Position numbers and translations under genes: made by a program
Source of the DNA: Candidatus Magasanikbacteria bacterium RIFOXYC2_FULL_40_16
Lineage (GTDB): Bacteria; Patescibacteriota; Patescibacteriia; Magasanikbacterales; UBA922
Assembly (NCBI GenBank): GCA_001783185.1
Contig: MFQY01000047.1
Location: forward strand, 1 to 52,961
DNA: 52,961 nt
Direction of reading: 5' to 3'
In this document: piece after piece, positions 22,181-51,599 of the stretch
Layout: the number at the start of each line of letters is the position of its first letter
Numbering within the stretch: position 1 is the first letter of the stretch
The notes under the pieces: generated by a model
Told to the model about the DNA's origin: nothing
Databases searched by the model: none
The model's input: only the letters and a program-made list of their open reading frames with translations

Positions 22181-22720
22181 TCATCCTGAATCCCCGTTTT
22201 CACGAGGACAGGCTCTGTGAGCCCGACGCAGGAGGGCGAGCATGTGAGGAAACCCGCCGATTTAATAATTTAAGACTTTAACTCGTAGCGAGTTTATGTA
22301 AATTCTTAACTAAATTTAACTAAAAAATAAACTTTATTTATGTCTGTCATTACGAGCCCCGACTAGGTTGGAGTGTAGTCTCGATTTCGCCTCAGCGAAA
22401 TCGAGATAATCTCGTAAATTTAAGCTTAAACCAACGGGATTGCGACGTCGTCTTGAGACTCCTCGGTTGACAGAGTAAAAACTCGCTATGAGTTCCTTGT
22501 GTGAATAAGATACTCTTTTTAAAAAAGGGTGTCAACCCCGTCACCATTCTGAAAATGTGCATAAATTACCGAAGCATAAAGACGAAGTCGCCTCACGGCT
22601 TTGTCTTTGTATTATCCATAAATTGTGCCAGAAAGGTGACGGGGTCAAATTATTATGAGTAACTCGTAATCCGTAATCCGTCCCGATGTAAAATCGGGAT
22701 AAGTGTTCCCTTATAACTAG
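22181..22720. repeat. Dense array of unrelated hairpin repeat modules (families A, B, C, D and others)
   Basis: It contains TGTCATCCTGAATCCCCGTTTTCACGAGGACAGG, TCTCGATTTCGC-CTCA-GCGAAATCGAGA and GGGATTGCGACGTCGTCTTGAGACTCCTCGG. It also contains a 109-nt element with 10-bp perfect terminal inverted repeats (22536-22644), TAACTCGTAATCCGTAATCCG, and TCCCGATGTAAAATCGGGATAAGTGTTCCCTTAT. Confidence 0.65.
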
Positions 22721-22786
22721 TAATTGATTCAGATTAAGTTTGGAATAAGGGACCCTTGTAAAAGATTGGGGATATTGTATTTGTGT

Positions 22787-24046: not shown

Positions 24047-26602
24047 TTAGGTCAATTTTTCTTCATCTTCTTCCGTTTCAGCTTTTTCTTTCCCGACACT
24101 GGTCGGGATTTCGTCCCGATGTAAAATCGGGATAAGTGTTTCCTTATCTGTGGACTCAACAACTTCTTCTGATACGGTTTCGTCCGCATCTTCTTCTATC
24201 TCTTCCCCTTTATCCTCTTCTTCGCTAGTAGCCGGGATGACGGTTTCCTCATCTTTCCCGACATTGGTCGGGATTTCGTCTTCGGGTTCAACATCAACGT
24301 CATCGCTGTATTCTTCCACATCCACTTCTTCGCCTAGGTCGTAAATTAAAGATTTTTTACCGTGCATTGATTCGGTCATTTTCATATGCGCTTCGGCATT
24401 AAGTTCTTCTTCGGTAATCAATATCTCTCTTGGTTTGGCTCCGTCCGCAGGGCCGATAATGCCGGCTTCTTCAAGTTCATCAAGAATACGGGCGGCGCGC
24501 GCGTAGCCGATTTTTAATTTTCTTTGTAAATATGAAGCGCTGGCTTTTCCGGCTTGCACCACCAATCTTTTTGATTCTTCAAAAAATTTGTCGCTATCAT
24601 CGTCTGAGCCGTCAAACACATTAATGGCGCTACCGGATTCATTTTGCTTTAAGATTTTTTCGTCATATTCAACATATTCGCCTTTTTGCAGATATTTTAC
24701 GACATTTTTTAAATCATCTTCCGACAAAAACGCGCCCTGAATACGAACCGGCTTTGACAGTTCATTATTTAAGTAAAGCATATCTCCGCGACCAAGTAAT
24801 TTTTCCGCGCCGGATGTGTCAAGAATTGTTCTTGAGTCTATTATTGACGGGAGGGAGAAGGCGATACGACCGGGGATGTTTGCTTTCATCAGTCCGGTGA
24901 TTACATCCACGCTTGGACGCTGGGTCGCGAGAACAAGGTGGATTCCGACCGCGCGCGCCATTTGCGCCAGTCTAATAATCCCCGCTTCTATTTCACCGGC
25001 GGCGGTCGCCATCAAATCGGCCAGTTCATCCACGACAAAAACCAAGTGGGGGATTTTATCGTTTGGGTGTTTGCTGTTGTATGAATCCAAATCACGACTT
25101 TTGTCCTGCGATAGAATTTCAAATCGGCGGTCCATTTCCGCAGTGGTCCATTTGAGCGCTTTGATGGTGTCGGCGGTGTTGGTGATAACCGGAGTCAGCA
25201 AGTGAGGGATGCCGTTATATAACGTCAATTCCACTCGTTTGGGGTCAACCATAAATATACGGAGCGTTTCGGCGGTATTTTGATATAAAAGGCTGGTCAA
25301 AATCGTGTTTACGCAAACGGTTTTTCCACTGCCGGTGGAGCCGGCGATTAACAAATGAGGCATACGAGGCAGATCGGCAAACCAAACTTTTCCGGCGACA
25401 TCTTTGCCGAGGGCAACCATCATATTGTGTTTTCTGTTTCTGTATTCGTCGCTTTCAAATAATTCTTTGAAAGTGATGATGGCGGTTTTTTCGTTCGGTA
25501 CTTCAATCCCGACCAAAGATTTGCCCGGAATCGGCGCTTCAATTCTGATTGGGTGGGCGGCCAGGGCGAGAGACAAATCGTTTGATAAAGCAATGATGCG
25601 GGACAGCTTCATACCCTTCTTCGGTTTGAGAGTGTAGCGGGTGACAGTCGGTCCAACGCTGGATTCTCCCATATCAACATCAATGCCAAATTCTTGCAGG
25701 GTTTCTCTGATTATTTCAGTATTGGCTTTTATGTCCCCACTGGTTGGTTTACTTCTTTTGCTGGTAAGCAAATCCAATTTTGGAGTCGGCTTAATCACGG
25801 TTTTTTGTGGCCAGGCTTTTTCCAATCCGAGTGTTTTTCCCGGTTTTAAATCCAACAGATTGCCATTTTCAAATTTTTTGGCGTCGTCTTCGTCATCATC
25901 ATCTCCGCCGATTTTTCGGCTGGTAATTTTTAGGCGATAGTCTTCGTCATCATCTTCAGATTCATTTTCTTCATCGGTTTTTTCTTCTTCGCCGTCTTCA
26001 TAATCATCGTCAGGTTGTTCGTCGGGCGCGTTTTTGTCTTTTTTAGAAACTTCGTTGATTATTTTTATCGCGCTTTTTCCGAAGACGCCAAAACTGGAAA
26101 ATATTTTTTTATTTATCACGAGCAGGTGCACAATCAAAGTGTTGAACATCAAAAGAAGCGATACCATTGCCATCGCCGTCAAAACAACCCAGGCCGCGAT
26201 TGAACCTAAATAAGTTTTTATCGGCCAGGCTGTCATCCCGAACACTCCGCCCCCATGGCCGAGAATCGCCTGCGCCCACATATTGGCCGGGGTGAAACCC
26301 ATATGGAATAATCCGGACATACTCAAGAAAAAAAGCGCGGCGCCGATTCCATGAGTGGGTTTGTAATTGTAGTCGCTGTCTTTAATTAAAAACCAGGCGA
26401 TGACAAGAATTACGAACGGAACGGCGTATCTGATTGAGCCGAATAAAAAACTTAATACCCCTTTGTTTAAGATGTAGCCGAGCGGGCCGGCTTGATCAAA
26501 AAAACTTAAAATTATTATTATTGCCACCACCGCCAAAACTATGGCTATGATTCCTTTGGAAAGGATGGGGTCAAATGACGGTTGTCTGCTTCTTCTGCCC
26601 AT
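24047..26602 (-). CDS. ftsK: DNA translocase FtsK/SpoIIIE with an extra acidic C-terminal tail
   Basis: N-terminal TM domain, acidic linker, Walker A GSTGSGKTV, Walker B VVDELADL and gamma winged helix (SYLQRKLKIGYARAARILDELEEAGIIGP). About 120 further residues follow. Confidence 0.92.
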   Translation of the reverse strand: MGRRSRQPSFDPILSKGIIAIVLAVVAIIIILSFFDQAGPLGYILNKGVLSFLFGSIRYAVPFVILVIAWFLIKDSDYNYKPTHGIGAALFFLSMSGLFHMGFTPANMWAQAILGHGGGVFGMTAWPIKTYLGSIAAWVVLTAMAMVSLLLMFNTLIVHLLVINKKIFSSFGVFGKSAIKIINEVSKKDKNAPDEQPDDDYEDGEEEKTDEENESEDDDEDYRLKITSRKIGGDDDDEDDAKKFENGNLLDLKPGKTLGLEKAWPQKTVIKPTPKLDLLTSKRSKPTSGDIKANTEIIRETLQEFGIDVDMGESSVGPTVTRYTLKPKKGMKLSRIIALSNDLSLALAAHPIRIEAPIPGKSLVGIEVPNEKTAIITFKELFESDEYRNRKHNMMVALGKDVAGKVWFADLPRMPHLLIAGSTGSGKTVCVNTILTSLLYQNTAETLRIFMVDPKRVELTLYNGIPHLLTPVITNTADTIKALKWTTAEMDRRFEILSQDKSRDLDSYNSKHPNDKIPHLVFVVDELADLMATAAGEIEAGIIRLAQMARAVGIHLVLATQRPSVDVITGLMKANIPGRIAFSLPSIIDSRTILDTSGAEKLLGRGDMLYLNNELSKPVRIQGAFLSEDDLKNVVKYLQKGEYVEYDEKILKQNESGSAINVFDGSDDDSDKFFEESKRLVVQAGKASASYLQRKLKIGYARAARILDELEEAGIIGPADGAKPREILITEEELNAEAHMKMTESMHGKKSLIYDLGEEVDVEEYSDDVDVEPEDEIPTNVGKDEETVIPATSEEEDKGEEIEEDADETVSEEVVESTDKETLIPILHRDEIPTSVGKEKAETEEDEEKLT
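24091..24147. repeat. Family-A hairpin units lying inside the ftsK 3' coding tail
   Basis: TCCCGACACTGGTCGGGA (24091-24108) and TCCCGATGTAAAATCGGGATAAGTGTTTCCTTAT (24114-24147). A further TCCCGACATTGGTCGGGA lies at 24256-24273. Confidence 0.7.
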
Positions 26603-35800: not shown

Positions 35801-36741
35801 GTTTACCTCGTGTTGAAGAATTGTTTGAAGCGCGCGCTCCAAAAAGAAAAGCGGTTTTAGCTGAACATAATGGCACGATTCAAATAGAAAACGCCGATGG
35901 CAAAGTTATTACCAGCCCGACAGGAAGAAAGATTTTTGAAGGTAGACGCGGACAGAAAATCATTAAACTTACTTATGACGGCAGTGATGAAATGGCGGTA
36001 AAATTTTTGAAGTCAGATGATTTGCAGGTTGCTGATGGGCAAGAAGTAAAAGAAGGCACAGTTTTGTTTGTTAGAGGCAGTTCGGGCGAGGAAGTGAAAG
36101 CTAAACACAACGGTATAGTCTTGATTGATAAAAATAAAGTGTTGCTTACTTTTGAAGGCAGTCATGTGAAAGAATATATCATCCCGATGGGATATAAGTT
36201 GTGGGTGAAAGACGGCGATGAAGTGAAGAAGGGCGATCAGTTGACTGAAGGCAGTGTTGATTTGCACGAATTGCATGAATTGAAAGGACGCGATGCGGTG
36301 CAAAGATATATTTTGACCGAGATTCAGGAAATTTACGCTTCGCAAGGCCAGAGGTTGAATGACAAACACGTGGAAATTATTATCAAACAAATGTTTAGTC
36401 GTGTTTACATTGAAGATCCGGGAGAAACTGATTTATTGCCGGGCGAAACAGTGGAAAAAGCGCAATGGCTGATTGCTAATCATCAATATAGAAAAGATTC
36501 AATCGCAAGATCAAAAGCGCGCGAATTATTCCTCGGCATCAGCAAGGTTTCATTATCAACACAAAGCTTTTTGTCAGCGGCTTCTTTCCAGGAGACTGCT
36601 CGTGTATTGATTAACGCCGCCATCAACGGAAAGATAGACCATTTGGAAGGCTTGAAAGAAAATGTTATCATCGGTCGTTTGATTCCGGTTGGAACCGGTT
36701 TTGGCGACAAAGAATTGAAAATAGATGAAGAAAGCAAATAG
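32845..36741 (+). CDS. rpoC: DNA-directed RNA polymerase subunit beta'
   Basis: 1298 aa with a zinc motif (CFCGKYKKIRYKGIICDKCGVEV), catalytic NADFDGDQMAVH and trigger-loop region. Confidence 0.97.
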   Translation: MSHESPHLIDFDALALQVASPEVIRGWSKGLVSKPETINYRTQKPEKGGLFAEEIFGPTKDWECFCGKYKKIRYKGIICDKCGVEVTHSLVRRERMGHIDLSTAVSHIWFLRSIPSKIGLVLDVPMHSLEKVIYFASFIITKVDENLRTETHEALKEEFKSKRKQIEKETKRKLETVGGKEKEMKSIVKEGDEKISNLEEEFKRVESDLKEMKPLTILSENQYQELALRFGHLFEAGIGAEAIKSLLEKINLEKTIEALTEEIKNSKGAKCERLIRRAKLLKSFYKNNIKPEWMILDVIPVIPPDLRPMVALDGGRFATSDLNDLYRRVINRNNRLKRLLDLNAPEVICRNEKRMLQEAVDALIDNNARASKTVTASTGQKRQLRSLADILKGKQGRFRQNLLGKRVDYSGRSVIVVGPKLNIDECGLPKRMALELFKPFVMSEIIKREYAYNVRSASRFIETNAPEVWDILEEVTKKTRVLLNRAPTLHRLGIQSFRPLLVEGKAIRLHPLVCPAFNADFDGDQMAVHVPLTEEARWEAENLMASEKNILKPATGSPVTTPQQDIALGCYYLTKYREDDTKEVKKFFSDIREATFAYKSRLITLKERIKVRFDDLSKFPEGTGPMIETSIGRIFFNEILPDKLPYYNETVTKKHLGNIIQFLLELYGQEKTAYVLDDMKSLGFKYVTTSGYSLGMEDFGSIPEKAAILKDGDEQILMVEQQYQEGLLTDSERHSKVMEIWTGVKDKVVSHNKEGLDKDGSVFAMIDSGARGSWGQLGQVIGMKGLVASPSGDIIELPVKGNFKEGFDVLEFFISSHGTRKGLSDTALRTANAGYLTRRLVDVAQDVVVLEDDCGDVDGEIFTKEQSEQMGQKLSQRVIGRFVLAPVKDGKRTIVKEGEVVTEEAARQIDQAGIEQIHVRSVLQCKLPKGVCVKCYGFDLSNNKVVKKGTAVGIIAAQSIGEPGTQLTMRTFHLGGVAGGGDITQGLPRVEELFEARAPKRKAVLAEHNGTIQIENADGKVITSPTGRKIFEGRRGQKIIKLTYDGSDEMAVKFLKSDDLQVADGQEVKEGTVLFVRGSSGEEVKAKHNGIVLIDKNKVLLTFEGSHVKEYIIPMGYKLWVKDGDEVKKGDQLTEGSVDLHELHELKGRDAVQRYILTEIQEIYASQGQRLNDKHVEIIIKQMFSRVYIEDPGETDLLPGETVEKAQWLIANHQYRKDSIARSKARELFLGISKVSLSTQSFLSAASFQETARVLINAAINGKIDHLEGLKENVIIGRLIPVGTGFGDKELKIDEESK

Positions 36742-36742
36742 G

Positions 36743-36777
36743 CCGTAACTCGTAAACCGTAATCCGTAACTCGTAAA
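36743..36777. repeat. Family-D short word repeat (TAACTCGT / AAACCGT / AATCCGT)
   Basis: CCGTAACTCGTAAACCGTAATCCGTAACTCGTAAAG lies directly after the rpoC stop. The same words recur at 22667-22680 and 40544-40664. Confidence 0.6.
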
Positions 36778-36789
36778 GTGAAAGAATAA

Positions 36790-36822
36790 AAAATTCCCCT
36801 GATTATTTCAGGGGAATTTTTT
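36790..36822 (+). terminator. Intrinsic terminator after rpoC
   Basis: AAAATTCCCCTGA-TTATTT-CAGGGGAATTTT plus a T-run. Confidence 0.65.
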
Positions 36823-36881
36823 GTGGACTTTTTTTAAAAACAAAATTTGGCTGATTTTAGCCATAAATTGGCTTTTTGCTA

Positions 36882-36910
36882 TTGACAAATTCAGAATTTT
36901 ATGTTATAGT
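36882..36910 (+). promoter_or_regulatory. Sigma70-like promoter (extended -10) of the DGR target gene
   Basis: TTGACA, 17-nt spacer, TGTTATAGT, about 165 nt upstream of the ATG at 37075. Confidence 0.5.
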
Positions 36911-37074
36911 AAGCTATTCTTTTAAAGCGTGGAAGGTTTGTAAAATCATATTGGTTGGAGTATTTATGTCGCTTAAATTAGGACATATAAATACTCTCCT
37001 CAATTTTGAGAGAGTCCCGGGCCTCGGGCAGGGGCAAAATACTTTTTGGGCTTTCAGCCCAATAGGAGACAGAG

Positions 37075-37665
37075 ATGGCAAAATATGATGGCTGGACATA
37101 TGGTGAGACCGAGGCGCTTCTCAACATCATCGGAGGCGCGGATGTCGCGCGCAAGGTGCTCCGAGGCGAGAGCAAACTGACTGTTGTGGAGATCGTTCCA
37201 CAACCCCTCCTGACTTTGGCTGGAACCGTCAAGGTTCAACCGGTGAATAAGCTCGGGGTGAACGAGTTTTTCAACGAGAATAACTCGTCGGTGAGAATCT
37301 CCTATGTCGGAGACAACTTCAAGGAGTGGTTCTACGGAAAGGAAGAGGAACAACCGAACGCGAACGAAACCGTCTTGCGTTATCACACGCTCAATCGGCG
37401 TTCGGTGGACGGTCCCATCATCAAGGAACTGGGTGGCGAGGACAAGGTCAAGGTTACTCTCTCCCATGTTGCTGCCCTTATGTTGGAACAGTCCAATGGC
37501 GAGCGGGGTGCGCTCCTGACCAATAGCTACGCGGACATCTTCTATGTTCACGACGTCGCGGTGAACGTGTACTGGCTCGGCTTCGGCTGGTACGTGGTCG
37601 CCTACTCGGTCGGGGATCCGGGTGGGTGGAACGCTGGCGGCCGGGTGTTCTCCTGCGATTCATAA
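37075..37665 (+). CDS. DGR variable (target) protein, C-terminal C-type-lectin-like variable region
   Basis: 196 aa with no signal peptide. The last about 36 codons (..AVNVYWLGFGWYVVAYSVGDPGGWNAGGRVFSCDS) contain the VR. The gene is G+C-rich relative to its flanks. Confidence 0.85.
   Translation: MAKYDGWTYGETEALLNIIGGADVARKVLRGESKLTVVEIVPQPLLTLAGTVKVQPVNKLGVNEFFNENNSSVRISYVGDNFKEWFYGKEEEQPNANETVLRYHTLNRRSVDGPIIKELGGEDKVKVTLSHVAALMLEQSNGERGALLTNSYADIFYVHDVAVNVYWLGFGWYVVAYSVGDPGGWNAGGRVFSCDS
37557..37656 (+). repeat. DGR variable repeat (VR)
   Basis: Gap-free 100-nt match to 38024-38123 with 17 mismatches, all at TR adenines. Coordinates anchored on ORF-track codon arithmetic. Confidence 0.88.
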
Positions 37666-37715
37666 CTTAGGTTCTTGGGCATTTTGCCCTTGACCCTTTG
37701 GCTCTTTGTTACTTT

Positions 37716-37761
37716 GGCCCCCAGAATTTTTTTTCGGAAAAATCTGGGGGCCTGTTTTTTT
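37716..37761 (+). terminator. Intrinsic terminator after the target gene
   Basis: GGCCCCCAGAATTTTTT..AAAAATCTGGGGGCC followed by TGTTTTTTT. Confidence 0.6.
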
Positions 37762-38023
37762 GTGAAAAAATTTATGTTATACTGTTTCGGTAGCCACACA
37801 TTGCTCGGCGGCCACGGCTTCCGTGAGATGGCTTCAGAAAATTTTTTTCGAGAGTCGCGTTGGGTATGCCTCGCGCGAGTGTGTAAAATTTTTTTTTTCA
37901 AAAACAAGAATCGGCGCGAAAAATTAGGGGACTTTTTATGTCCCGAATGATATTCAATCCGAGGAGAATTCCAAGGATAGTGTTTAAAGATGATTTTTCG
38001 CGCGAGAACATTCTCGTGTTGCG

Positions 38024-38123
38024 CGCGGTGAACGTGAACTGGAACGGCAACGGCTGGAACGTGAACGCCAACTCGGTCGAGAATCCGAATGAGTGGAACG
38101 CTGACAACCGGGTGTTCTCCTGC
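38024..38123 (+). repeat. DGR template repeat (TR), non-coding
   Basis: In the VR frame it reads AVNVNWNGNGWNVNANSVENPNEWNADNRVFSC (AAC/AAT-rich) and has 25 adenines. A possible extended -10 promoter (TGTTATACT, about 37775-37783) lies upstream. Confidence 0.88.
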
Positions 38124-38141
38124 CACTGTTGTTTTCTCCCG

Positions 38142-38517
38142 TTATTTAGCGGGAGTTTTGCTCAAAAGGCCTTTCCTCCACCCGCCCAACATGCGGCCGA
38201 TTTCATCCAGCTTTTGCGATAGAGTTATATATTTATCTTTGGGTATAAGTTTGTTTTCCCATGCTAGTTGAAAAAAGAATTTTAAGATATCCATTCGTGA
38301 GATGGTTTTTCCAAGCAGAATTATTTTTTGTTCAGGAGGCAAATAAGCGGCCGTGAAAGTTAATTCCAGTATATCCAAGAAGGTTTGTTCTATTTTTTGG
38401 CCTAAGCCAAAGCGCTCTGTCTTTGGCAAGTTTTTATGAAGCGCGAGCCAGAATTGGTATACTTCTTTTTCCTTTGTAATTACCGTTGGTAGCTGGGGGG
38501 GGGGTTAATTGATTCAT
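38142..38517 (-). CDS. avd: Avd-like accessory protein (four-helix bundle / 23S rRNA IVS protein family), reading frame broken at a C10 tract
   Basis: Track ORF 38142..38429 (..LPKTERFGLGQKIEQTFLDILEL...KYITLSQKLDEIGRMLGGWRKGLLSKTPAK) matches the family. Conserved N-terminal residues (EKEVYQFWLALHKN) continue upstream in the same frame to a TAA at the C10 run (38495-38504). The only ATG (38515-38517) is in another frame. Confidence 0.7.
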
Positions 38518-38524
38518 AATATAT

Positions 38525-39646
38525 ATGAAGGTTAAATTGTTTGATACTTTTAATGATATTGTTAGTATAAAAAATTTGATGGGCGCTTGGAGGGATCTCT
38601 TGAAAGGGAAACAAAATAAAAAGGACATCCAATTTTTCTCCCTCCATTTAATGGATAATATCTTAGCTCTTCATTATGATTTAGTAAACAGAACTTATCA
38701 ACATGGTGGTTATGCCAGTTTTTATATAAATGACCCAAAACGGAGGCACATCCATAAAGCGGATGTCAGGGATAGATTACTGCATCACGCCGTTTACAGA
38801 ATTTTATATCCGTTTTTTGACAAAACATTTATATCGGATTCGTTTTCGTGTCGAAACGGCAAGGGTACGCATAGGGCGGTTAATCAGTTTAGAAAAATGA
38901 CCTGCCGGGCAAGCAAAAATAACACAGCCACTGGTTGGGTTTTGAAATGCGATATTAAAAAGTTTTTCGCGAGTATTGACCATAAGGTTTTAATAAACAT
39001 ACTTAATGAATATATACAGGATAAAGATATTATGTTGTTGCTTGAGAATATTGTTGAAAGTTATATGACTGTTTGTCATTCTCGCCCTGTATCACCATTC
39101 TGTCATTCCCGCGAAGGCAGGAATCCAGTTCACGGGATAAACTCCGGCGGGAATCCAGATGATTGGCGGCTGGATCCCCGTTTTCACGGGGATGACAGCA
39201 TTGATGTTGGCTTGCCGCTTGGCAATTTAACTTCCCAGCTTTTTGCCAATGTTTATATGAATGTTTTTGACCAATGGGTTAAACACTTCTTAAAAGCAAG
39301 ATATTATATCAGATATGCCGACGATTTTGTTTTTCTTTCGCCCGACAGGCAATGGCTGGAAGATATTATCCCCAAGATACAAAAATTTTTATCGGAAAGA
39401 TTAAAATTGACTTTGCATCCAAATAAATTATTTTTGAAAACAATTTATTCAGGCATGGATTTCCTTGGTTGGATAAATTTTCCCGGCCATAGGATACTGC
39501 GCCGTACAACCAAGCGCCGGATGTTGGCCAAAATCAAAAATAATCCAACGCCCGAGGCATTGCAGTCATATCTTGGTTTATTAAAACATGGCAACACACA
39601 CAAAATAAAACAGGAGCTTTTGGGGCAGTATTGGTTGTGGCAGTGA
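38525..39646 (+). CDS. DGR-type reverse transcriptase
   Basis: 373 aa with RT motifs (LLHHAVYRILYP, KCDIKKFFASIDH, YIRYADDFVFLS) and the DGR-diagnostic GLPLGNLTSQLFANVYMN. Confidence 0.9.
   Translation: MKVKLFDTFNDIVSIKNLMGAWRDLLKGKQNKKDIQFFSLHLMDNILALHYDLVNRTYQHGGYASFYINDPKRRHIHKADVRDRLLHHAVYRILYPFFDKTFISDSFSCRNGKGTHRAVNQFRKMTCRASKNNTATGWVLKCDIKKFFASIDHKVLINILNEYIQDKDIMLLLENIVESYMTVCHSRPVSPFCHSREGRNPVHGINSGGNPDDWRLDPRFHGDDSIDVGLPLGNLTSQLFANVYMNVFDQWVKHFLKARYYIRYADDFVFLSPDRQWLEDIIPKIQKFLSERLKLTLHPNKLFLKTIYSGMDFLGWINFPGHRILRRTTKRRMLAKIKNNPTPEALQSYLGLLKHGNTHKIKQELLGQYWLWQ
39068..39202 (+). repeat. Family-C hairpin repeats inserted in frame in the RT gene (about 45 codons)
   Basis: TGTCATTCCCGCGAAGGCAGGAATCCAG and GGATCCCCGTTTTCACGGGGATGACA match intergenic copies at 50540, 51518 and 22181. 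They encode TVCHSRPVSPFCHSREGRNPVHGINSGGNPDDWRLDPRFHGDDSI between RT motif 2 and the LGNLTSQ motif. Confidence 0.65.
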
Positions 39647-39805
39647 GTTAATATTGTGGTTTTAATAGTGATGAAGCTATTTGATCTTTAACTGTTTTTA
39701 TGTTTAAATTATGGCATAAACATGCCAATCAATTATTAAACACATTCGCATTATTCGCGTAATTAGCATATAATTCGCGTATTCGTGTTATATTTAAATA
39801 TTTTT

Positions 39806-40537
39806 ATGTCCGGTCATTCAAAATGGGCTAATATACAGCAAAAAAAGGGGAAAATGGACAGCGCGCGCAGCGGTTTGTTCACTAAATTAAGCAAAGGAAT
39901 AACCATTGCCGCCCGAGGCGGAGGCGATCCGGAAATGAATTTTTCTTTGCGTTTAGCGATAGAAAAAGCCAAAGGCGCCAATATGCCTAAAGATAATATT
40001 GAACGCGCCGTTAAGCGCGGAACCGGCGAGTCGGGCGAAGGCGCGGTTTTGGAAGAAATATTGTATGAGGGTTTCGGGCCGGGCGGAACGGCTTTTTTAA
40101 TTGAAACGGTTACAGATAATAAGAACAGAACAGCGTCTGAAATCAAACATGCTTTTCTTCAGTTTGGCGGTTCCATGGGCGGGCCGGGAAGCGTGAAGTG
40201 GCAATTTAAACGGATGGGTGTTATCCGTTTAAATAAAGAACAATTAGCAATTAACAATGAACAATCGGCTAATTTTGAATTGGAATTGATTGAGGCCGGA
40301 GCGGATGATATTGTTGATAATGAGTACGGTATGGAAATTCATTGTCCGATTGAAAAATTGCAAGCGGTTTTGGGAGCGGTGAATAAGCGCGAATTGACGC
40401 CGGAGAGTTCGGGATTGGAATGGGTGGCGAAAGAAAATATTTCTTTGAAAGAAGGCGAATCAGCTACTGTGAATAAATTATACGAAATACTGGATGAGTT
40501 GGATGATGTGGAAGCGGTCTACACTAATGAGGCGTAA
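39806..40537 (+). CDS. YebC/PmpR-family transcriptional regulator
   Basis: MSGHSKWANIQQKKGK..., conserved throughout. Track ORF 39785 trimmed to this ATG. Confidence 0.9.
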   Translation: MSGHSKWANIQQKKGKMDSARSGLFTKLSKGITIAARGGGDPEMNFSLRLAIEKAKGANMPKDNIERAVKRGTGESGEGAVLEEILYEGFGPGGTAFLIETVTDNKNRTASEIKHAFLQFGGSMGGPGSVKWQFKRMGVIRLNKEQLAINNEQSANFELELIEAGADDIVDNEYGMEIHCPIEKLQAVLGAVNKRELTPESSGLEWVAKENISLKEGESATVNKLYEILDELDDVEAVYTNEA

Positions 40538-40543
40538 AATTAA

Positions 40544-40664
40544 GTAACTCGTAAACCGTCCCGATGTGAAATCGGGATAAGTGTTCCCTTATAATCCGTA
40601 ACTCGTACAGTCCCGACATAGTCGGGACAAAATTACGAGTTACGAGTTACTAGTTACGGATTAC
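40544..40664. repeat. Composite D-A-D-A-D repeat block forming a long imperfect palindrome
   Basis: GTAACTCGTAAACCG, TCCCGATGTGAAATCGGGATAAGTGTTCCCTTAT, AATCCGTAACTCGTACAG, TCCCGACATAGTCGGGA and AATTACGAGTTACGAGTTACTAGTTACGGATTAC. Confidence 0.65.
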
Positions 40665-41301: not shown

Positions 41302-44300
41302 ATGCGCGTCCAAACATATAAAATACCGGGGTTGGCGGTTGTTTTGTTTGTATTTTTATCATTTTTACCTTTTCCGGCCAAGGCGGCCACAACAATTTCA
41401 GGTATTATTTCTACTGACACTGTCTGGACAGCGGCCAACAGCCCATATATAGTCAACGGCACTTTAACCATTCCAACTGGTATTACATTAATTATAGAGC
41501 AGGGTGTAGTGGTTAAATTTATTCATTTACAATCTAAAATGAATGTGTATGGCGCGATGCAAGTAAATGGAACAAATGATAATAAAGTATACTTTACTTC
41601 ATATAAAGATGATGAAGTCGGAGGCGACACCAATGCTGATGGAAGCGCTTCTTTACCTCTTCCAAAAGATTGGCGGCAAGTAATTATCTATCCGGGGGCT
41701 AACGTAAATTTTAATTATTCGATTATTCGTTACGGAGGAAACACCGCTTCTGTTTGTCCGGATTATACTTGTTCTGGGGCACTAAACAATAAAGGAAATC
41801 TTGATTTTTCAAATTCACAAATTTATCAAACAGACAAATATGGTATTTACCAAAGCGAAGGATTAACTACCGCTGACGCGGCTGTGTTTGATGGCCAATC
41901 GCAAGCCGGAATTTATGTAAGTAGCGGTAGTCTATCAGTATCTGGCTCTACTTTTTCAAACCAGGATCACACTGGTATTATTATGTTAGGCGATTCCAAT
42001 TTTGATTTGAATAACAATATTTTCCAAAACAATTTAAGAGATGTGTATATAGATGCGAGAGTTAATTTTACTCATTCAAATAATAACTCACAAGGCGGTA
42101 CTTTAGCCGGTTTTAACATAGGGGGAATATCTAGAATAAATTCAGTTTGGGAATCAGATAATATGCCGTATATTGTTAATGGGAATCTCATTGTGCAGGA
42201 GGATAGCGCGCTCACAATTAATTCCGGAGTAATAATAAAATTTGCGCATAACCAATCATACTTAGACGTGCGTGGTATTTTGAGTGTGAACGGCGAAGAA
42301 GAAAAAAAGGTATATTTTACTTCTTTAAAAGATGACGAAGCCGGCGGGGACACAAATGGAGATGGAAACATAACACTGCCCGCCGAAAAAGATTGGCGAA
42401 GAATTTTAGTAAATCCTGGCGCTATAGCCAACATTAATAACGCCATAATAAGATATGGCGGATATATTCAATTTAATTGTCCTTACTACACTTGCTACGG
42501 AGCAGTTAATAATAGAGGCAATCTTAATCTCATAAATTCAGAAATAACTAAAAATGGAAATTACGGTATTTACCAAACTGACGGCATTTCGATTATTGAT
42601 ACATCTTCTATATCAGAACACTCCAGAGGAATTTATGTTACGACCGAGAGTGATAACCTAACAATTCACAACAGCTCAATATTCAATAACACCGGCTACG
42701 GCATTTTGAATTATTCTTCCAATACTGTTGACGCCACGCGCAATTGGTGGGGCGATCCGACCGGACCGTATCATTATGCTTTAAACACCGGCGGATTAGG
42801 CAACGCGGTATCGGATGGCGTTAATTTTAGTCCATGGTTGAATTATGATCCGTCGGTTGAACAAATGCCCACAATAGAAAATCTTGAGCAGTTTAGATTG
42901 ATTGAAGAAGTTGAATTGACAGAAGGAGAATCAACGGCAAATAATGTTATTATCTTGAAAGCATTATTGACTGATCCAAATGAAGATATGGTAAAAATGC
43001 AAGTAGAGCTAAAAAAATACAGCCAAAATTTTGATGGACAAAATCTATTGGAAACGGAATTAGTGCCTTCAGGAACAATCACGATGGTCACCTTTACCGG
43101 CCTCGTAGAAGAAAGTTATAAATGGAGAGCGCGAACAATGAATGAAAATGGCTTCACTTCTGAATGGCAGGAATTTGGCGCGCAAGGCAATGTTGACTTT
43201 TCTATTGTCCCCTTGGGTCAGGCCGCGGCTGATTTGGCTAAAAAACTTGCAAATCATCCGGAAGCATATTTATGGGGTGGTAAAGGGTGGAGTTTTAATC
43301 AGCAAGAATTTATTTCAGCTTCTGTTATTTTATCCGGGTATGATTATTGGAATCCAGATTTACAGGGGTACGATACAGGAATAGGTTTGGATTGTTCTGG
43401 TTTAGTTGTGTGGTCTTTTGATAGATCAAATAATCCGTTTTTAAGTCGTTATAATAATGTAATTTTAGCAGAAGGTTCGAATTCTCAATATCATGATAAT
43501 TCTGAGGCAATAAATGAATCAGATTTACAGAGTGGGGATCTATTATTTTTTGGTTATTACGATCAAAATAAAAATGTAACTACCACCACCCATGTAGCCA
43601 TGTATGTTGGTAATAATGGGAGTTATGATGTCGTACATGCATCCTCCCCACAATTAGGCATACGAACTGCCTGGAAAGATTCTTTAAAAACAGAAGGGAA
43701 TTTTTTGAAAACTTTCGGATTTAGACGTATTATTTTAAATACCGAGTTAAGTCTTATAAAAGGTTATATACAAGTTGGTTCACCCGTAGACCTAGTAGTT
43801 AGAGATCCCAATGATTTTATCATAAGTCAAGAATTATATACACAAAGTGATTCAGAATATTCACATGAAATACTTGGGGAACTATATTATGCTAATGATG
43901 GAATGGGTAGCGATGGACGTCCTAAAGACATGGTTTATTGGACGAAAAATAAAGTTGGAAATTTTAATATACAAGTTATTCCTGAATCAGATATCTTACT
44001 AACAGATACATATAGTTTAGAATTCCACGCAGGTGATCAAGTAATTATGTTGGCAAAAGATCTGCCAATATCAGAGATACCGGAAAAAGGGTATGGTGTA
44101 TCGGTTTCAGATATGGGTGTAATTGAAGAATTCTTACCAGTAGATATCAATATTAAACCAGAAAGTGAAGATAATACCATAAATTTAGGATCAAATGGTT
44201 CGGTCTCTGTTGCGATATTTGGTTCGGATATGCTTAATGTTAGAGATATTGATTGGGGCAGTGTGCGACTTGCAAGCGCTTCTATTAAATTAAAAGGTAA

Positions 44301-44509: not shown

Positions 44510-45115
44510 ATGAAAAAACAACATAGCATAGTATCAATATTTATCTTAATAATTATAGTATTACTATCAGTAGTGGCAGCTTCCATTTTTGTATACTCAA
44601 AAATAAAACCAAATACCAAAACAACCGAGACAGAACAAAAACCAGAAAAAGAAGATAGTATGGAAGAGCAAATGGTGAGTACTATTATTGAAGGCGAAGA
44701 ATATAATACTTACAGAAATGAAGAGTATGGATTTGAATTTCAGTTTCCAAAAGACTGGTCGATAAAGGAGGAAGTTAGTGGAAATTATTATAGTAAAATT
44801 ACTGTATTTTCATCCCCAGGCACTATAGCAAGTACACTTAGCCCAGCCATACTGGTTAATGTTGTATTGCCAGAATTTGCTGATAATACATTTAATTCAT
44901 TAAATAAGATAAGTTCTAGTATCGAAGTTGATGGGGTGAAAGGAATCAAATATGAATATGAATATGGAGGGGTGCCTGAAATAGCAACAGTAGTATCACT
45001 TAGTAAGTACAAAATAATTTTAGGAACTATAGGTGTTAGGACTATAAATAATAAATTAGATTTTCATGAAAAAGAATATTACAATTTTTTGAATTCTTTT
45101 AAATTTTTAAGATGA
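44510..45115 (+). CDS. N-terminally anchored small protein, tandem paralog 1
   Basis: 201 aa with one TM segment, then EGEEYNTYRNEEYGFEFQFPKDWSIKEE..SFKFL. Confidence 0.7.
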   Translation: MKKQHSIVSIFILIIIVLLSVVAASIFVYSKIKPNTKTTETEQKPEKEDSMEEQMVSTIIEGEEYNTYRNEEYGFEFQFPKDWSIKEEVSGNYYSKITVFSSPGTIASTLSPAILVNVVLPEFADNTFNSLNKISSSIEVDGVKGIKYEYEYGGVPEIATVVSLSKYKIILGTIGVRTINNKLDFHEKEYYNFLNSFKFLR

Positions 45116-45663
45116 AAAAGAGAGATAGTATAATAACCATCTTCATTCTAACAACGGTCATCTTACTTGTAATTGTATTTGCTTGTCTTTTTGTATTTTA
45201 CAAAATTAAACCAGGGTTACAAAAATTACAAATAACACAAGAAGAAATTAAAAAACAAAACAATATTACTGAGGGAACTGAATTTAATACTTACCGTAAT
45301 GAAGAATTCGGGTTTGAATTTAATTTTCCAAAAGATTGGAAAATTAGAGAAAATGCCTTCGGTAGTGCTGTAAGTAAATTCAATTTAGTCATAGAACCAA
45401 CTAACATTAAATATCTACCACACCCAATAAGAATCAACATTCTGCCAAATGACTGGATAGAAAAAGTAACCAAAGATATGATTGAATCGGATAGATTATC
45501 AGTGGATGGAGTTAGTGGAGTCAAATATAAAGAATTGGACATGGGGCTACCACAGATAGAATATATATTTCCTTTAGGTGATAATAAAATTGTCATAGGA
45601 GGGAAGGAACAATATGAGGCTACACTAAATGAAGTTTTATCAACATTCAAATTTCTAAAATAG
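45112..45663 (+). CDS. N-terminally anchored small protein, tandem paralog 2
   Basis: 183 aa sharing the EGTEFNTYRNEEFGFEFNFPKDWKIREN core. ATGA overlap with paralog 1. Confidence 0.7.
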   Translation: MKKRDSIITIFILTTVILLVIVFACLFVFYKIKPGLQKLQITQEEIKKQNNITEGTEFNTYRNEEFGFEFNFPKDWKIRENAFGSAVSKFNLVIEPTNIKYLPHPIRINILPNDWIEKVTKDMIESDRLSVDGVSGVKYKELDMGLPQIEYIFPLGDNKIVIGGKEQYEATLNEVLSTFKFLK

Positions 45664-45664
45664 A

Positions 45665-46240
45665 ATGAAAAAAAACATAATAACAATATACGTCATAATT
45701 TTTATTGTTCTACTTACAGTTGTAGGTGCCTCTCTTTTTGTATTCTCTACAATTAAACCAAAACAAAAAATAATAAATTCAAATAATGGTGAACAAAAAA
45801 CTCAAATCGTGGAAACTAAAGGGACAAAACTACGGGGTGTTATTATTGAAGGAACTGAATTTAATACTTACCGTAATGAGGAATTCGGGTTTGAATTTAA
45901 GTTTCTAAGAGACTGGAAGTTAGAAGAAAATTCCTTTGGTAGTTATTACAGTAAATTTAACATAGTATTATCACCATCTACAGGGCAAAAAGTTTTGTTC
46001 CCAATTTTGATCAATGTTGTCTTGCCTGAATTTGCTGATCGTAGTTTTAATTCTGTAGAAAAAATTACTTCTGAAATAATAGTAGACGGTATAAGTGGAA
46101 TAAAACATGAGTATGAATTTGAGGGATTTTCAGAAACTGCTATTATATTACCACTTGGAGAATATAAGATAATTTTGGGTATTAACATTTACGAAAATGG
46201 GTACAATGATTTTCTTAAAACGTTCAAGTTCCTAAAATAG
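45665..46240 (+). CDS. N-terminally anchored small protein, tandem paralog 3
   Basis: 191 aa with EGTEFNTYRNEEFGFEFKFLRDWKLEEN..TFKFLK. Confidence 0.7.
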   Translation: MKKNIITIYVIIFIVLLTVVGASLFVFSTIKPKQKIINSNNGEQKTQIVETKGTKLRGVIIEGTEFNTYRNEEFGFEFKFLRDWKLEENSFGSYYSKFNIVLSPSTGQKVLFPILINVVLPEFADRSFNSVEKITSEIIVDGISGIKHEYEFEGFSETAIILPLGEYKIILGINIYENGYNDFLKTFKFLK

Positions 46241-46241
46241 A

Positions 46242-46442
46242 ATGAAAAAACAAAATAGCGTAATAACAATATTCATCTTAATTATTGTAGTATTACTATC
46301 AATAGTGGCAGCTTCCATTTTTGTATACTAAAAAATAAAACCAAATACCAGAATAATTGAATCTCTTCAAAATGATGTTAGCACTTATGTGCCTGAACTT
46401 TTGAAGTTTGATTTTGATGTGAGAGTATTGGGTGAAAATTAA
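46242..46442 (+). pseudogene. Chimeric pseudogene: 5' end of a fourth anchored paralog fused to the last about 23 codons of a beta-helix/Vps62-type gene
   Basis: A single frame reads MKKQNSVITIFILIIVVLLSIVAASIFVY*KIKPNTRIIESLQNDVSTYVPELLKFDFDVRVLGEN*. The N-part matches 44510.. and the C-part matches the end of 11278..14463 (NEVSTYVPELLKFDFDVKVMVEN). Confidence 0.65.
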
Positions 46443-50443: not shown

Positions 50444-50490
50444 AAAACTCCCCCGATTTAGTCGGGGGAGTTTTGGTTTTTATTTTTTTG
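50444..50490 (+). terminator. Intrinsic terminator after pnp
   Basis: AAAACTCCCCCGA-TTTA-GTCGGGGGAGTTTT plus T-runs. Confidence 0.65.
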
Positions 50491-50497
50491 TTGTTTT

Positions 50498-50622
50498 TGT
50501 CATTGCGAGGAGTCCCAAGACGACGTCGCAATCCCGTCTTGTCATTCCCGTGAAAGCGGGAATCCAGTAATTTAAAATCTAATGCCTAAAACCTAATCCC
50601 TAAATAATCTAAATAAGTCATT
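50498..50622. repeat. Family-B unit followed by the left copy of an about 84-bp direct repeat (family-C hairpin plus CCTAA word tail)
   Basis: TGTCATTGCGAGGAGTCCCAAGACGACGTCGCAATCCC is followed by TTGTCATTCCCGTGAAAGCGGGAATCCAGTAATTTAAAATCTAATGCCTAAAACCTAATCCCTAAATAATCTAAATAAGTCATT (50539-50622). Confidence 0.65.
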
Positions 50623-50749: not shown

Positions 50750-51463
50750 ATGTCGGTTAACCTATATCTCAGTGAAAAAGTCCGAGAACTTCCCGGTTTC
50801 GAGAGTAAGCCTTACAGCGATGGCTCCGGCGATGAGATGAGGATCAAAGGAATGCGGTTGCAAGGAGACAAAGGACGTTTCTATCTCTATTGGGACATGA
50901 GTGATTCCCTCTCGGATGAACTCAAGGACTTGGTGGAGGAGATTTCATGCTACGAGACGATTCCTCAGATGGGATACCGAGAATCCGGTATCTATCGGCA
51001 CGGAAGCGCGGAGTGCGAACTCATCCCTGAAGATCAGGGAAACAGCAAGCGCCAAAAGTTGGTGTATAGACTCAAGATCACCGCGAGCAAACTGGAAGAT
51101 GTCAGGGAAATTCTCCACAAGGTGAAGACCGGGGCGATTCGTCCCGAGGAAAGCTACGAGTGTCGCCAAAGCGGCAAAGATCGTTCGGAGCTTGAAAGAG
51201 AGCTCTCTCATACTAAAGAGATGCGGGATTCGGCGTTGCAGGTGGTCAAAGATCTTATGAATGAATTGGAATCGGTGAACCATGACTTCTCCCGTTTCAC
51301 CGATGATTATGTTGAGTTGCAAAAAAAGATCACCCGTATGTACAATTTCGCTGGTGACTTGCTTGGCCGTCAAGACGGCAAAAAAAAGGCCTTCCGTTGG
51401 CCGTTCGTGAGTCGACTGGGTGTGGTAGATAAGATGCTCCGTGCCCTTGATGGCAAAGAGTAA
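50750..51463 (+). CDS. Hypothetical 237-aa protein (G+C-rich cassette, coiled-coil-like C-terminal half)
   Basis: ORF preceded by AAGGAGAAAAGCG-ATG. Composition differs from the flanks. No motif recognised. Confidence 0.6.
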   Translation: MSVNLYLSEKVRELPGFESKPYSDGSGDEMRIKGMRLQGDKGRFYLYWDMSDSLSDELKDLVEEISCYETIPQMGYRESGIYRHGSAECELIPEDQGNSKRQKLVYRLKITASKLEDVREILHKVKTGAIRPEESYECRQSGKDRSELERELSHTKEMRDSALQVVKDLMNELESVNHDFSRFTDDYVELQKKITRMYNFAGDLLGRQDGKKKAFRWPFVSRLGVVDKMLRALDGKE

Positions 51464-51465
51464 TC

Positions 51466-51517
51466 AACCCCGTACTAGACAAGCCCTGTGCCTGTTTGGA
51501 CGGGGTTTTGTTTTTTT
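51466..51517 (+). terminator. Intrinsic terminator
   Basis: AACCCCGT...ACGGGGTT stem followed by TTGTTTTTTT. Confidence 0.5.
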
Positions 51518-51599
51518 GTCATTCCCGTGACTACGGGAATCCAGTAATTTAAAACCTAATGCCTAAAACCTAATCCCTAAATAATCTAAATAAGTCATT
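51516..51599. repeat. Right copy of the about 84-bp direct repeat
   Basis: TTGTCATTCCCGTGACTACGGGAATCCAGTAATTTAAAACCTAATGCCTAAAACCTAATCCCTAAATAATCTAAATAAGTCATT is near-identical to 50539-50622. Confidence 0.65.

What the first reader, a model, noticed from the sequence alone, without database searches (positions are those of the whole stretch)
39068..39202. DGR reverse transcriptase carries an in-frame 45-codon insertion built from intergenic hairpin repeats
Between RT motif 2 (KCDIKKFFASIDH...VESY) and the DGR-diagnostic GLPLGNLTSQ motif lies about 135 nt. It consists of palindromic units (TGTCATTCCCGCGAAGGCAGGAATCCAG; GGATCCCCGTTTTCACGGGGATGACA) that match non-coding copies at about 50540, 51518 and 22181. 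The insertion keeps the frame and introduces no stop. The VR shows extensive A-mutagenesis. So either the RT tolerates a repeat-encoded loop in its fingers region, or diversification predates the insertion.
Basis: partly seen in the sequence, partly recalled or inferred. Interest (0 to 1): 0.65.

Follow-up and report, generated by a model that had tools for sequence, protein, structure and literature searches.

The report
Hairpin repeats translated inside DGR RT
A reverse transcriptase that diversifies a target gene in an uncultured groundwater bacterium carries about 45 extra codons of selfish hairpin-repeat DNA in one surface loop, still appears to work, and about a third of its relatives have hairpin DNA at the same spot.

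Summary
The DGR reverse transcriptase gene (38525-39646, +) contains a GC-rich, in-frame, stop-free block (39074-39197, TGTCAT...ATGACA). It is built from two full and two partial copies of a 27-28 nt hairpin unit that also lies between genes at 50540, 51517 and, in part, 22190.

The nearest relatives (71-74% identical) lack it and read SF-ET/PV-GLPLGN, so the window has 46 extra codons. AlphaFold2 gives a confident RT core (TM 0.87 to Bordetella bRT 8UB7) and an unstructured loop for the insert.

The RT appears active with the insert. At least 17 independent assemblies carry an RT gene identical at every base, insert included, yet their variable regions differ at 21 positions, all of them template-repeat adenines.

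The site is a within-gene hotspot. Of 200 related RTs from candidate phyla radiation (CPR) bacteria, 72 carry insertions of 4 aa or more at this junction, against 3 or fewer at any other position. The inserts belong to several unrelated hairpin families and use different reading frames.

The unit fits the Neisseria dRS3 pattern (ATTCCC-N8-GGGAAT). The phenomenon resembles Rickettsia palindromic elements.

I read it as selfish palindromic DNA tolerated in a permissive loop. Targeting of the site, or a function for the hairpin, is not excluded.

The parts
38525..39646 (+). DGR reverse transcriptase gene (373 aa) carrying the insertion
   Evidence: Pfam RVT_1. Best solved relative is bRT 8ub7. 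AF2 model has mean pLDDT 89.5 and TM 0.87 to 8ub7_A. It carries the LGNLTSQ motif.
39074..39197 (+). Repeat-derived insert, bounded by TGTCAT...ATGACA.
   Evidence: Absent from the nearest relatives L098 and L100. GC 0.57. DNA fold z = -3.1. pLDDT is below 50 for residues 189-209, with almost no regular secondary structure across 181-227 (only two short helical turns near 214-220).
39101..39128 (+). Hairpin unit A1, TGTCATTCCCGCGAAGGCAGGAATCCAG (dRS3-like, ATTCCC-N8-AGGAAT)
39170..39197 (-). Hairpin unit A2, the same family inverted (CTGGATCCCCGTTTTCACGGGGATGACA on the + strand)
39074..39085 (+). Partial unit (TGTCATTCTCGC), the left half of the family
   Evidence: Read from the sequence.
39144..39158 (+). 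Partial unit (CCGGCGGGAATCCAG), the right half of the family
   Evidence: Read from the sequence.
50540..50567 (+). Non-coding copy of unit A. It matches ATTCCC-N8-GGGAAT exactly and sits after a terminator-like hairpin and a hairpin of another family.
51517..51544 (+). Non-coding copy of unit A, part of an 84-nt direct repeat with 50539-50622
22190..22208 (+). Partial non-coding copy of unit A2 (18 of 19 bases)
37557..37656 (+). Variable repeat (VR) at the 3' end of the target gene 37075-37665
   Evidence: 17 mismatches to the TR, all at TR adenines. The VR differs between assemblies at 21 positions, all TR adenines.
38024..38123 (+). Template repeat (TR)
38142..38429 (-). avd accessory gene, on the opposite strand. 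Its true start is probably further upstream, near the polyG tract at 38497-38505.
   Evidence: Pfam bAvd; translations

Best explanation
A cluster of small palindromic repeat units has landed in the reverse transcriptase gene of an active diversity-generating retroelement. The units are GTCATTCCCGnGAAAGCGGGAATCCAG, the pattern called dRS3 in Neisseria. The arrangement is two full units in inverted orientation plus two partial units.

The site is the loop that joins the second RT3a helix to the strand carrying motif 4 (GLPLGNLTSQ). Five of the six reading frames of the unit are open, and the block keeps the frame, so it is translated into about 45 hydrophilic, Gly/Pro/Asp/Arg-rich residues. These are predicted to form an unstructured loop outside the polymerase core. 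The enzyme still works.

The insert is best seen as selfish or passenger DNA, of the kind known from Rickettsia palindromic elements. It survives because this junction tolerates extra length. The same junction has been hit repeatedly, by several hairpin families, in related CPR (candidate phyla radiation) RTs.

Shown: the insertion status, the repeat identity, the intact frame, the hotspot, and ongoing adenine-specific VR diversification in a population that uniformly carries the insert.

Inferred: surface exposure and disorder, neutrality, and the way the units move.
For: Insertion status: nearest relatives (P0003, P0006, P0011, P0016, P0036, P0040; 71-74% identical) have a 2-residue loop where the window has 48. 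At DNA level the block is a clean gap in L098 and L100.

Repeat identity: copies at 50540, 51517 and 22190. The same unit pair occurs between genes in L071 and inside the RT in L024, L089 and L103. Window units are 93-96% identical to those of L024 and L071, against 63-75% for RT flanks. The unit fits ATTCCC-N8-GGGAAT (PMC1797815). Its translations are the familiar spurious peptides LDSRLRGND, CHSREGGNP and VIPAKAGIQ found in Neisseria and Rickettsiaceae short ORFs.

Tolerance: the AF2 core is confident (pLDDT above 90, TM 0.87 to 8ub7_A), while residues 189-209 score below 50. The RT gene has zero nucleotide differences across L001-L017, yet there are at least 6 VR versions differing at 21 positions, all TR adenines. 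L003 has a different cDNA integration boundary. Adenine-biased TR/VR pairs occur in 10 of 15 insert-bearing loci and 49 of 67 insert-free loci.

Hotspot: 72 of 200 RTs have an insert of 4 aa or more at model position 185, against 3 or fewer at any other position. Every expanded loop examined encodes a strong hairpin. Distant DGR RT clades carry a native, conserved segment of about 23 aa at the same junction, so its length varies naturally.
Against: No biochemical test of this RT exists. A second RT elsewhere in the genome could in principle drive the VR changes; only 53 kb was seen.

Surface exposure rests on low pLDDT, not on coordinates docked to the bRT-Avd-RNA complex. In that complex the RT is almost entirely enveloped by RNA, so a 45-residue loop might interfere with or contact RNA.

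The concentration of hairpins at a single junction is stronger than tolerance alone obviously predicts. A second length-variable region (model positions 295-306) carries few inserts in the 200-RT set (5 sequences); their hairpin content was not tested.

Most homologues' inserts have no second copy within 10 kb on either side, so mobility is shown only for some families.
Confidence: 0.8

Rival explanations
1. The hairpins are there for a reason, or are aimed there. Either the junction is a preferred landing site for hairpin elements, for example because they insert next to existing palindromes. Or a DNA/RNA hairpin at this point of the RT gene is selected, for example to modulate RT expression or to act as a dRS3-like recombination site that promotes exchange of RT segments.
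For: 72 of 200 RTs carry hairpin-encoding inserts at one junction, from several unrelated families. Loops often hold more than one family, such as P0005, P0009, P0015 and the window. Between genes, units also pile up next to other hairpins (50444-50567). The conserved LPLGN codons just downstream form a mini-palindrome (39212-39225). The mosaic contig L101 has 350 nt identical to the window, centred on the insert, inside a backbone about 70% identical.
Against: The distance from element end to GLPLGN varies between 5 and 11 nt, and the reading frame varies too, so there is no single integration point. The mini-palindrome is not significantly commoner in insert-bearing genes: 10 of 15 against 30 of 66. 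The nearest relatives manage with a 2-residue loop. L101 has 1.25x coverage and may be a chimeric assembly. With one uniform hairpin criterion, RT genes are not clearly richer in hairpins than other genes.
Confidence: 0.12
2. The insertion killed the RT, and the adenine-specific VR differences are fossils from before it.
For: The insert ends about 3-4 residues before G229 of motif 4, whose L232/G233/Q238 correspond to the bRT residues I181/G182/Q187 that contact template and dNTP.
Against: All assemblies share the insert and are about 99.8-100% identical outside the VR and part of the target gene in L002. Their VRs nevertheless differ at 21 TR-adenine positions, so the changes are younger than the insertion. 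The ORF is intact with zero substitutions in 17 assemblies. All insert-bearing RTs in the genome scan are in frame.
Confidence: 0.05
3. The segment is a native, lineage-specific RT subdomain rather than an insertion of repeats.
For: Other DGR RT clades do have a native conserved extension at this junction. Several relatives show similar CHSxxGNP...LDSRxxGND peptides.
Against: It is absent from the closest relatives. It is a GC spike. It matches non-coding repeats in the same window and in other genomes far better than the RT flanks match. Different reading frames of the same DNA unit are used in different RTs. pLDDT is low.
Confidence: 0.02
4. It is an assembly artefact that spliced repeat DNA into the gene.
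For: Repeats commonly cause misassembly, and many contigs here break at the VR/TR.
Against: The identical sequence appears in at least 17 contigs from different samples and sources, whose contig names show several different naming formats and hence probably different assembly pipelines.
Confidence: 0.01

Closest known systems
Rickettsia palindromic elements (RPEs; Ogata et al. 2000, 2002, as summarised in PMC10969869)
   Same: Short palindromic repeats inserted in frame into otherwise conserved genes. They are translated, absent from orthologues, and thought to sit where the fold tolerates them.
   Different: The sequence family differs and the units are shorter (27-28 nt, clustered into about 124 nt, against about 150 bp). 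The host phylum is CPR/Patescibacteria. Many independent hits fall at one junction of one protein family, which I have not seen described for RPEs (own knowledge).
Neisseria dRS3 repeats and neisserial intergenic mosaic elements (NIMEs)
   Same: The unit fits the dRS3 consensus ATTCCC-N8-GGGAAT (PMC1797815). The extended 27-nt unit gives the same spurious peptides as Neisseria short ORFs. Units flank AT-richer spacers, as at 50539-50622 and 51516-51599.
   Different: dRS3/NIME elements are described as intergenic arrays in Neisseria. Here the units are inside a coding sequence in a CPR bacterium. No dRS3-specific recombinase or prophage was looked for or seen.
REP/BIME elements and bacterial MITEs
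   Same: GC-rich hairpins in multiple copies, clustered next to terminators and to each other. The composite has terminal inverted repeats, TGTCAT...ATGACA.
   Different: No GTAG or CGTC tag (read directly from the unit sequence; the tags are named in the abstract of PMC3733652). No clear target-site duplication. No RAYT or other transposase identified. The location is coding.
Bordetella phage BPP-1 DGR reverse transcriptase bRT (PDB 8UB7)
   Same: Same fold (TM 0.87), the same diagnostic motif 4 (I/LGxxxSQ), an Avd partner, and adenine-specific TR-to-VR mutagenesis.
   Different: bRT has no such loop: about 16 residues where the window RT has about 62. Here avd is on the opposite strand, between the TR and the RT.

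Membership tests
Diversity-generating retroelement (DGR) | Reverse transcriptase of the DGR clade with the I/LGxxxSQ motif 4 | tested here: met
   LGNLTSQ at residues 232-238. Best PDB relative is bRT 8ub7, by sequence E 3.6e-40 and by fold TM 0.87.
Diversity-generating retroelement (DGR) | TR/VR near-repeat whose mismatches fall at TR adenines | tested here: met
   17 of 17 mismatches are at TR adenines. 21 of 21 positions that vary between assemblies are TR adenines.
Diversity-generating retroelement (DGR) | Accessory variability determinant (Avd) | tested here: met
   Pfam bAvd, E 3.5e-12 and 9.7e-14 for the longer ORF in L002. The start codon in the window's G8 allele is uncertain.
Diversity-generating retroelement (DGR) | Catalytically active RT | tested here: inconclusive
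Population VR diversity with an invariant, intact RT gene argues for activity. A trans-acting second RT is not excluded.
Protein-coding palindromic elements (RPE-like) | Repeat with further copies elsewhere in the genome | tested here: met
   Copies at 50540, 51517 and 22190.
Protein-coding palindromic elements (RPE-like) | Palindromic or hairpin-forming | tested here: met
   Each unit is a stem-loop and the two full units are inverted relative to each other. DNA fold z = -3.1; the RNA-parameter fold gives -54.5 kcal/mol.
Protein-coding palindromic elements (RPE-like) | In-frame, stop-free insertion in a conserved gene, absent from orthologues | tested here: met
Protein-coding palindromic elements (RPE-like) | Insert lies on the protein surface, compatible with the fold | tested here: inconclusive
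   AF2 shows a confident core and a low-confidence coil for residues 181-225. No coordinates were available to place the loop on the bRT-Avd-RNA complex.
Protein-coding palindromic elements (RPE-like) | Sequence homology to the Rickettsia RPE families | not tested
   No RPE sequences were compared. The unit matches the dRS3 pattern instead.
Neisseria dRS3/NIME | 20-bp inverted repeat ATTCCC-N8-GGGAAT | tested here: met
   50543-50562 and 51520-51539 fit exactly. The RT copy at 39104-39123 has one arm mismatch (AGGAAT). Unit A2 is the variant ATCCCC-N8-GGGGAT.
Neisseria dRS3/NIME | Arrays of dRS3 units separated by RS spacers in intergenic regions | tested here: inconclusive
   There is an 84-nt repeat made of a unit plus a 56-nt AT-rich tail that ends in GTCATT. 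No long arrays occur in this window.
Neisseria dRS3/NIME | Association with a dRS3-targeting recombinase or filamentous prophage | not tested
   Not searched for.
MITE | Terminal inverted repeats and target-site duplication | tested here: inconclusive
   Terminal inverted repeats are present (TGTCAT...ATGACA, 28-nt arms). No target-site duplication can be called, because the nearest empty sites are only about 72% identical.
Intron or intein (removed after transcription or translation) | Known self-splicing RNA structure, or intein splice-junction residues | tested here: not met
   No Rfam match in the insert at E up to 1. At 45 residues it is far too short for an intein, and the C-terminal junction (SID|V) lacks His-Asn followed by Cys/Ser/Thr (sequence). 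All sampled inserts keep the frame.

The most novel reading that the evidence does not exclude
The RT3a-motif 4 junction of CPR (candidate phyla radiation) DGR reverse transcriptases is not merely permissive. Either it is a preferred landing pad for hairpin elements, or a hairpin there is selected. Possible roles are dRS3-like recombination sites that shuffle RT gene segments between DGRs, as the L101 mosaic would suggest if it is real, or a structure that tunes RT expression. More broadly, in-frame 'protein-coding palindromes' may be a common and so far undescribed feature of CPR proteomes: Fpg and GT4 examples were seen in passing.
Probability: 0.12. Interest if true: 0.75.

Novelty: new variant of a known kind. 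Interest (0 to 1): 0.5.

Why it matters
It is a natural experiment. A DGR reverse transcriptase accepts about 45 unrelated residues a few positions upstream of the motif that contacts template and nucleotide, and keeps diversifying its target. That marks a permissive site in a compact RT, which could be useful for tagging or fusing domains in DGR-based mutagenesis tools.

It also extends the Rickettsia 'selfish DNA in proteins' phenomenon to CPR bacteria and to a dRS3-like repeat family that is shared with Neisseria and Rickettsiaceae. And it shows an unusually sharp within-gene hotspot: 36% of 200 relatives hit at one junction. That raises the question of whether selection or targeting shapes where such elements survive.

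Tried and rejected
Intron or other known RNA: the Rfam scan of 36700-39900 found nothing in the insert.

Intein: too short, and it lacks the junction residues.

Allele without the insert: all five members of the 90% cluster and all 17 contigs carry it.

Same peptide inside other protein families: the profile search (A4) returned only short unannotated ORFs. It failed to return the known RT cases, so it says nothing about other families.

Second copies of homologues' inserts within 10 kb on either side: found for only 1 of 13. Mobility of those families is therefore unproven.

RT genes as a genome-wide hotspot: with one simple hairpin criterion, 5 of 81 RT genes scored against at most 41 hairpins in roughly 1,100 other genes (a rough estimate from about 1.25 Mb scanned). 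This is not clearly different, and the criterion misses compound hairpins.

LPLGN mini-palindrome as a seed for insertion: 10 of 15 against 30 of 66, not significant.

P0004 locus as a second test of activity: the three assemblies are identical over 21 kb, and only 13 of 20 TR/VR mismatches are at adenines. Uninformative.

P0013/L101 mosaic as evidence of recombination: coverage is 1.25x, so a chimeric assembly is equally likely.

Residue-level placement of the loop on 8UB7: the tools return no coordinates.

Full report
1. What is at the coordinates

The window carries a complete DGR immediately downstream of rpoB and rpoC. Its parts are:
- a target gene at 37075-37665 (+), with the variable repeat at 37557-37656;
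- the template repeat at 38024-38123;
- an avd gene on the opposite strand at 38142-38429 (Pfam bAvd);
- the reverse transcriptase gene at 38525-39646 (Pfam RVT_1).

The best solved relative of the RT is Bordetella bRT (8ub7, E 3.6e-40). The HMMER alignment stops at query 165/bRT 160 and resumes at query 227/bRT 176, leaving about 46 extra residues in the query. The extra part is MTVCHSRPVSPFCHSREGRNPVHGINSGGNPDDWRLDPRFHGDDSIDV. It lies between the second helix that follows the catalytic-Asp motif KCDIKKFF (motif 3 plus the RT3a helices) and GLPLGNLTSQ (motif 4). That is a labelling slip only.

2. The repeat claim holds

Unit A1 (39101-39128, TGTCATTCCCGCGAAGGCAGGAATCCAG) matches 50540-50567 with 3 mismatches and 51517-51545 at 83%. 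Unit A2 (39170-39197) is the same family inverted. Shuffled sequence gives no such matches. The copy near 22181 is partial (22190-22208, 18 of 19 bases).

Two partial units, at 39074-39085 and 39144-39158, complete a block that begins TGTCAT and ends ATGACA. The block has GC 0.57 against 0.27-0.40 for the rest of the gene. As single-stranded DNA it folds better than all 200 shuffles (z = -3.1). It is in frame and has no stop. Rfam finds nothing in it.

3. It is an insertion

I aligned 119 homologues (56-76% identical; those named by their sources are Magasanikbacteria, Falkowbacteria and other Patescibacteria). The usual loop between 'ESFxT' and 'GLPLGN' is 2-8 residues.

In a neighbour-joining tree built with the loop masked, the window RT groups with P0003, P0011, P0006, P0016, P0036 and P0040. 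All of these have a 2-residue loop. At DNA level, L098 (P0003) and L100 (P0006) read AGTTTC-CCGGTT-GGT and AGTTTT-GAAACT-GGC, where the window has 46 additional codons.

4. Does the RT still work?

The same RT protein is present in many public assemblies. I retrieved 17 contigs (L001-L017) from ENA, JGI, NCBI (GCA_001784365.1) and Logan.
- Over 38525-39646 there is not one nucleotide difference, and no allele lacks the insert.
- By contrast the VR exists in at least six versions.
- Every VR-TR mismatch in every version is at a TR adenine: 17 of 17, 11 of 11, 16 of 16, 13 of 13, 6 of 6 and 1 of 1.
- The 21 positions that vary between assemblies are all TR adenines.
- L003 also has 15 extra bases at the 5' edge of the VR that match the TR, which indicates a different cDNA integration boundary.

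All these genomes share the insert and are otherwise about 99.8-100% identical. The VR changes are therefore younger than the insertion. This is the strongest available evidence that the insert-bearing enzyme is active. The remaining loophole is a second RT elsewhere in the genome.

Among 82 loci in total (81 genome-scan and window loci, plus L103), adenine-biased TR/VR pairs accompany 10 of 15 insert-bearing RTs and 49 of 67 insert-free ones.

5. Structure

AlphaFold2 run with the 120-sequence alignment gives mean pLDDT 89.5. The core scores above 90, with TM 0.87 and rmsd 3.2 A to 8ub7_A. Residues 181-225 are mostly coil with low confidence, below 50 for residues 189-209. The peptide is 76% polar, charged, Gly or Pro.

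The insert ends about 3-4 residues before G229. L232, G233 and Q238 correspond to bRT I181, G182 and Q187, which contact the template base and incoming dNTP (10.1101/2023.10.23.563531). That paper also reports that bRT is almost entirely enveloped by spacer RNA. Whether the loop clashes with RNA could not be tested without coordinates.

6. A within-gene hotspot

I combined the 120 aligned RT proteins (the window's plus its 119 homologues) with 80 RT loci from species-representative genomes and mapped insertions on a profile HMM. Of the 200 RTs, 72 have an insertion of 4 residues or more at model position 185, and 57 have one of 10 or more. No other position exceeds 3.

The inserts translate several unrelated repeat families:
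- CHSxxGNP...LDSRxxGND and VIPAxAGIQ, which are two reading frames of unit A;
- IASS...APRNDK;
- LSPKGRGD;
- HPYPSLERRGY;
- PPLTPPxGGGE;
- EILRxxQNDK.

There are also unique perfect palindromes. Every expanded loop examined at DNA level is a strong hairpin. Carriers of unit A are scattered through the tree among insert-free relatives.

The window's units are 93-96% identical to those in the L024 RT and to an intergenic pair in L071 (a Staskawiczbacteria genome). The RT flanks are only 63-75% identical. These are therefore repeated, fairly recent insertions rather than an inherited segment.

In more distant DGR RT clades (36-45% identical) the same junction holds a native, conserved extension of about 23 residues (...P.HKSLF). 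The junction is thus naturally variable in length.

7. Is the RT special in the genome?

Probably not as a gene. A uniform scan for GC-rich hairpins found them inside other real genes. One is an Fpg glycosylase in L083, whose N-terminal domain is about 60 residues longer than the Pfam profile and contains PPQAWGG...SPLARGERG. Another is a GT4 glycosyltransferase in L067. By that criterion RT genes are not clearly enriched. In this window, however, the RT insert is the only GC-rich hairpin inside a long ORF. What stands out is the concentration at one junction within the RT.

8. What the unit is

It fits the Neisseria dRS3 consensus ATTCCC-N8-GGGAAT (PMC1797815). A profile of the insert peptides retrieves only short unannotated ORFs from Neisseria, Rickettsiaceae and others, which carry LDSRLRGND, CHSREGGNP, MPAKAGIQ and SFPRKRES. 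These are translations of intergenic copies.

The closest described phenomenon is the Rickettsia palindromic element: palindromic repeats inserted in frame in unrelated genes (review PMC10969869). I found no paper describing such inserts in CPR proteins or in DGR RTs. The searches cover open-access text only.

9. Mechanism and rivals

Most likely (0.8): selfish palindromic units landed in a permissive loop, are translated, and are tolerated.

Not excluded (0.12): the junction is targeted, or a hairpin there is useful. Two quick tests did not support this. The mini-palindrome encoded by LPLGN (39212-39225) is not significantly commoner in insert-bearing genes. Element-to-motif distances and reading frames vary.

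The 'dead RT', 'native domain' and 'artefact' readings are each contradicted by several lines of evidence (sections 3 and 4).

10. Verdict

The finding is a new variant of a known kind: RPE-like coding palindromes, here dRS3-like units in a CPR DGR RT with a sharp recurrent hotspot. Interest is moderate.

Noticed in passing
window 38497-38505: A homopolymeric G tract between avd and the RT gene is G8 in the window, L001, L010-L015 and L017, and G9 in L002-L009. It lies in the N-terminal PPP codons of avd on the minus strand. G9 opens a 163-168 aa ORF that matches Pfam bAvd positions 6-106. G8 leaves a stop just upstream and only a TTG start (95 aa, profile positions 21-106). This may be a slipped-strand on/off switch for Avd, or it may be sequencing noise.
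   Followed up: partly
window 50539-50622 and 51516-51599: An 84-nt direct repeat (95% identical), made of hairpin unit A plus a 56-nt AT-rich tail ending in GTCATT, brackets an ORF at 50750-51463 (237 aa, no Pfam family). It looks like a dRS3-RS arrangement or a small cassette.
   Followed up: partly
L003 556-570 (the 15 extra bases sit just upstream of window 37557): One assembly has 15 extra bases at the 5' edge of the VR that match the TR. This points to a different boundary of cDNA integration in that lineage.
   Followed up: partly
window 38071 (L005, L009): Two assemblies carry an A-to-C change inside the template repeat itself.
   Followed up: no
L101 (P0013), corresponding to window 38930-39280: A mosaic RT gene: about 350 nt, including the whole insert, are 100% identical to the window, while both flanks are about 70% identical. 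Contig coverage is 1.25x. It is either recombination between divergent RT genes or a chimeric assembly.
   Followed up: partly
L083 6837-7862; L067 3732-4898: Other CPR genes carry in-frame hairpin-derived segments. An Fpg glycosylase has about 60 extra residues in its N-terminal domain (PPQAWGG...SPLARGERG). A GT4 glycosyltransferase holds three GC-rich hairpins. Coding palindromes may be widespread in CPR proteomes.
   Followed up: partly
RT profile positions 219-222 (window residues about 257-260) and 164-166: A minor second insertion spot in related RTs also holds repeat-like peptides (PYPPLLGERQREG, DCPFAKGQSLA). L084 has a second hairpin insert (PSSSPPYQGGER) between the RT3a helices.
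   Followed up: no
window 38142-38429 (-): avd lies on the strand opposite to the target, TR and RT, between the TR and the RT. The same layout is seen in L100, L102-L104 and in the gene table of the P0006 contig for which no DNA was held. The RNA downstream of the TR would then be antisense to avd, unlike the Bordetella arrangement.
   Followed up: no
window 15386-15425, 22434-22465, 50494-50537; 22666-22732, 24099-24165, 40544-40610; 8-48, 10629-10669: At least three further intergenic hairpin families are present: GTCATTGCGAGGAGTCCCAAGACGACGTCGCAATC, GTCCCGATGTAAAATCGGGAT and GTCCCGACTAAGTCGGGA. They often sit next to terminators or to one another.
   Followed up: no
window 13152-14405 vs 41360-42613; 44510-46356: Long inverted repeats (74-75% complementary) link two large beta-helix/NlpC-P60-type surface protein genes. 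Downstream of the second gene there is a tandem series of paralogous units about 580 nt long.
   Followed up: no
L002 894-1104 (window 37215-37413): The N-terminal half of the DGR target gene differs at 32 positions, not adenine-specific, in one assembly that is otherwise near-identical. This suggests a recombined target allele.
   Followed up: no
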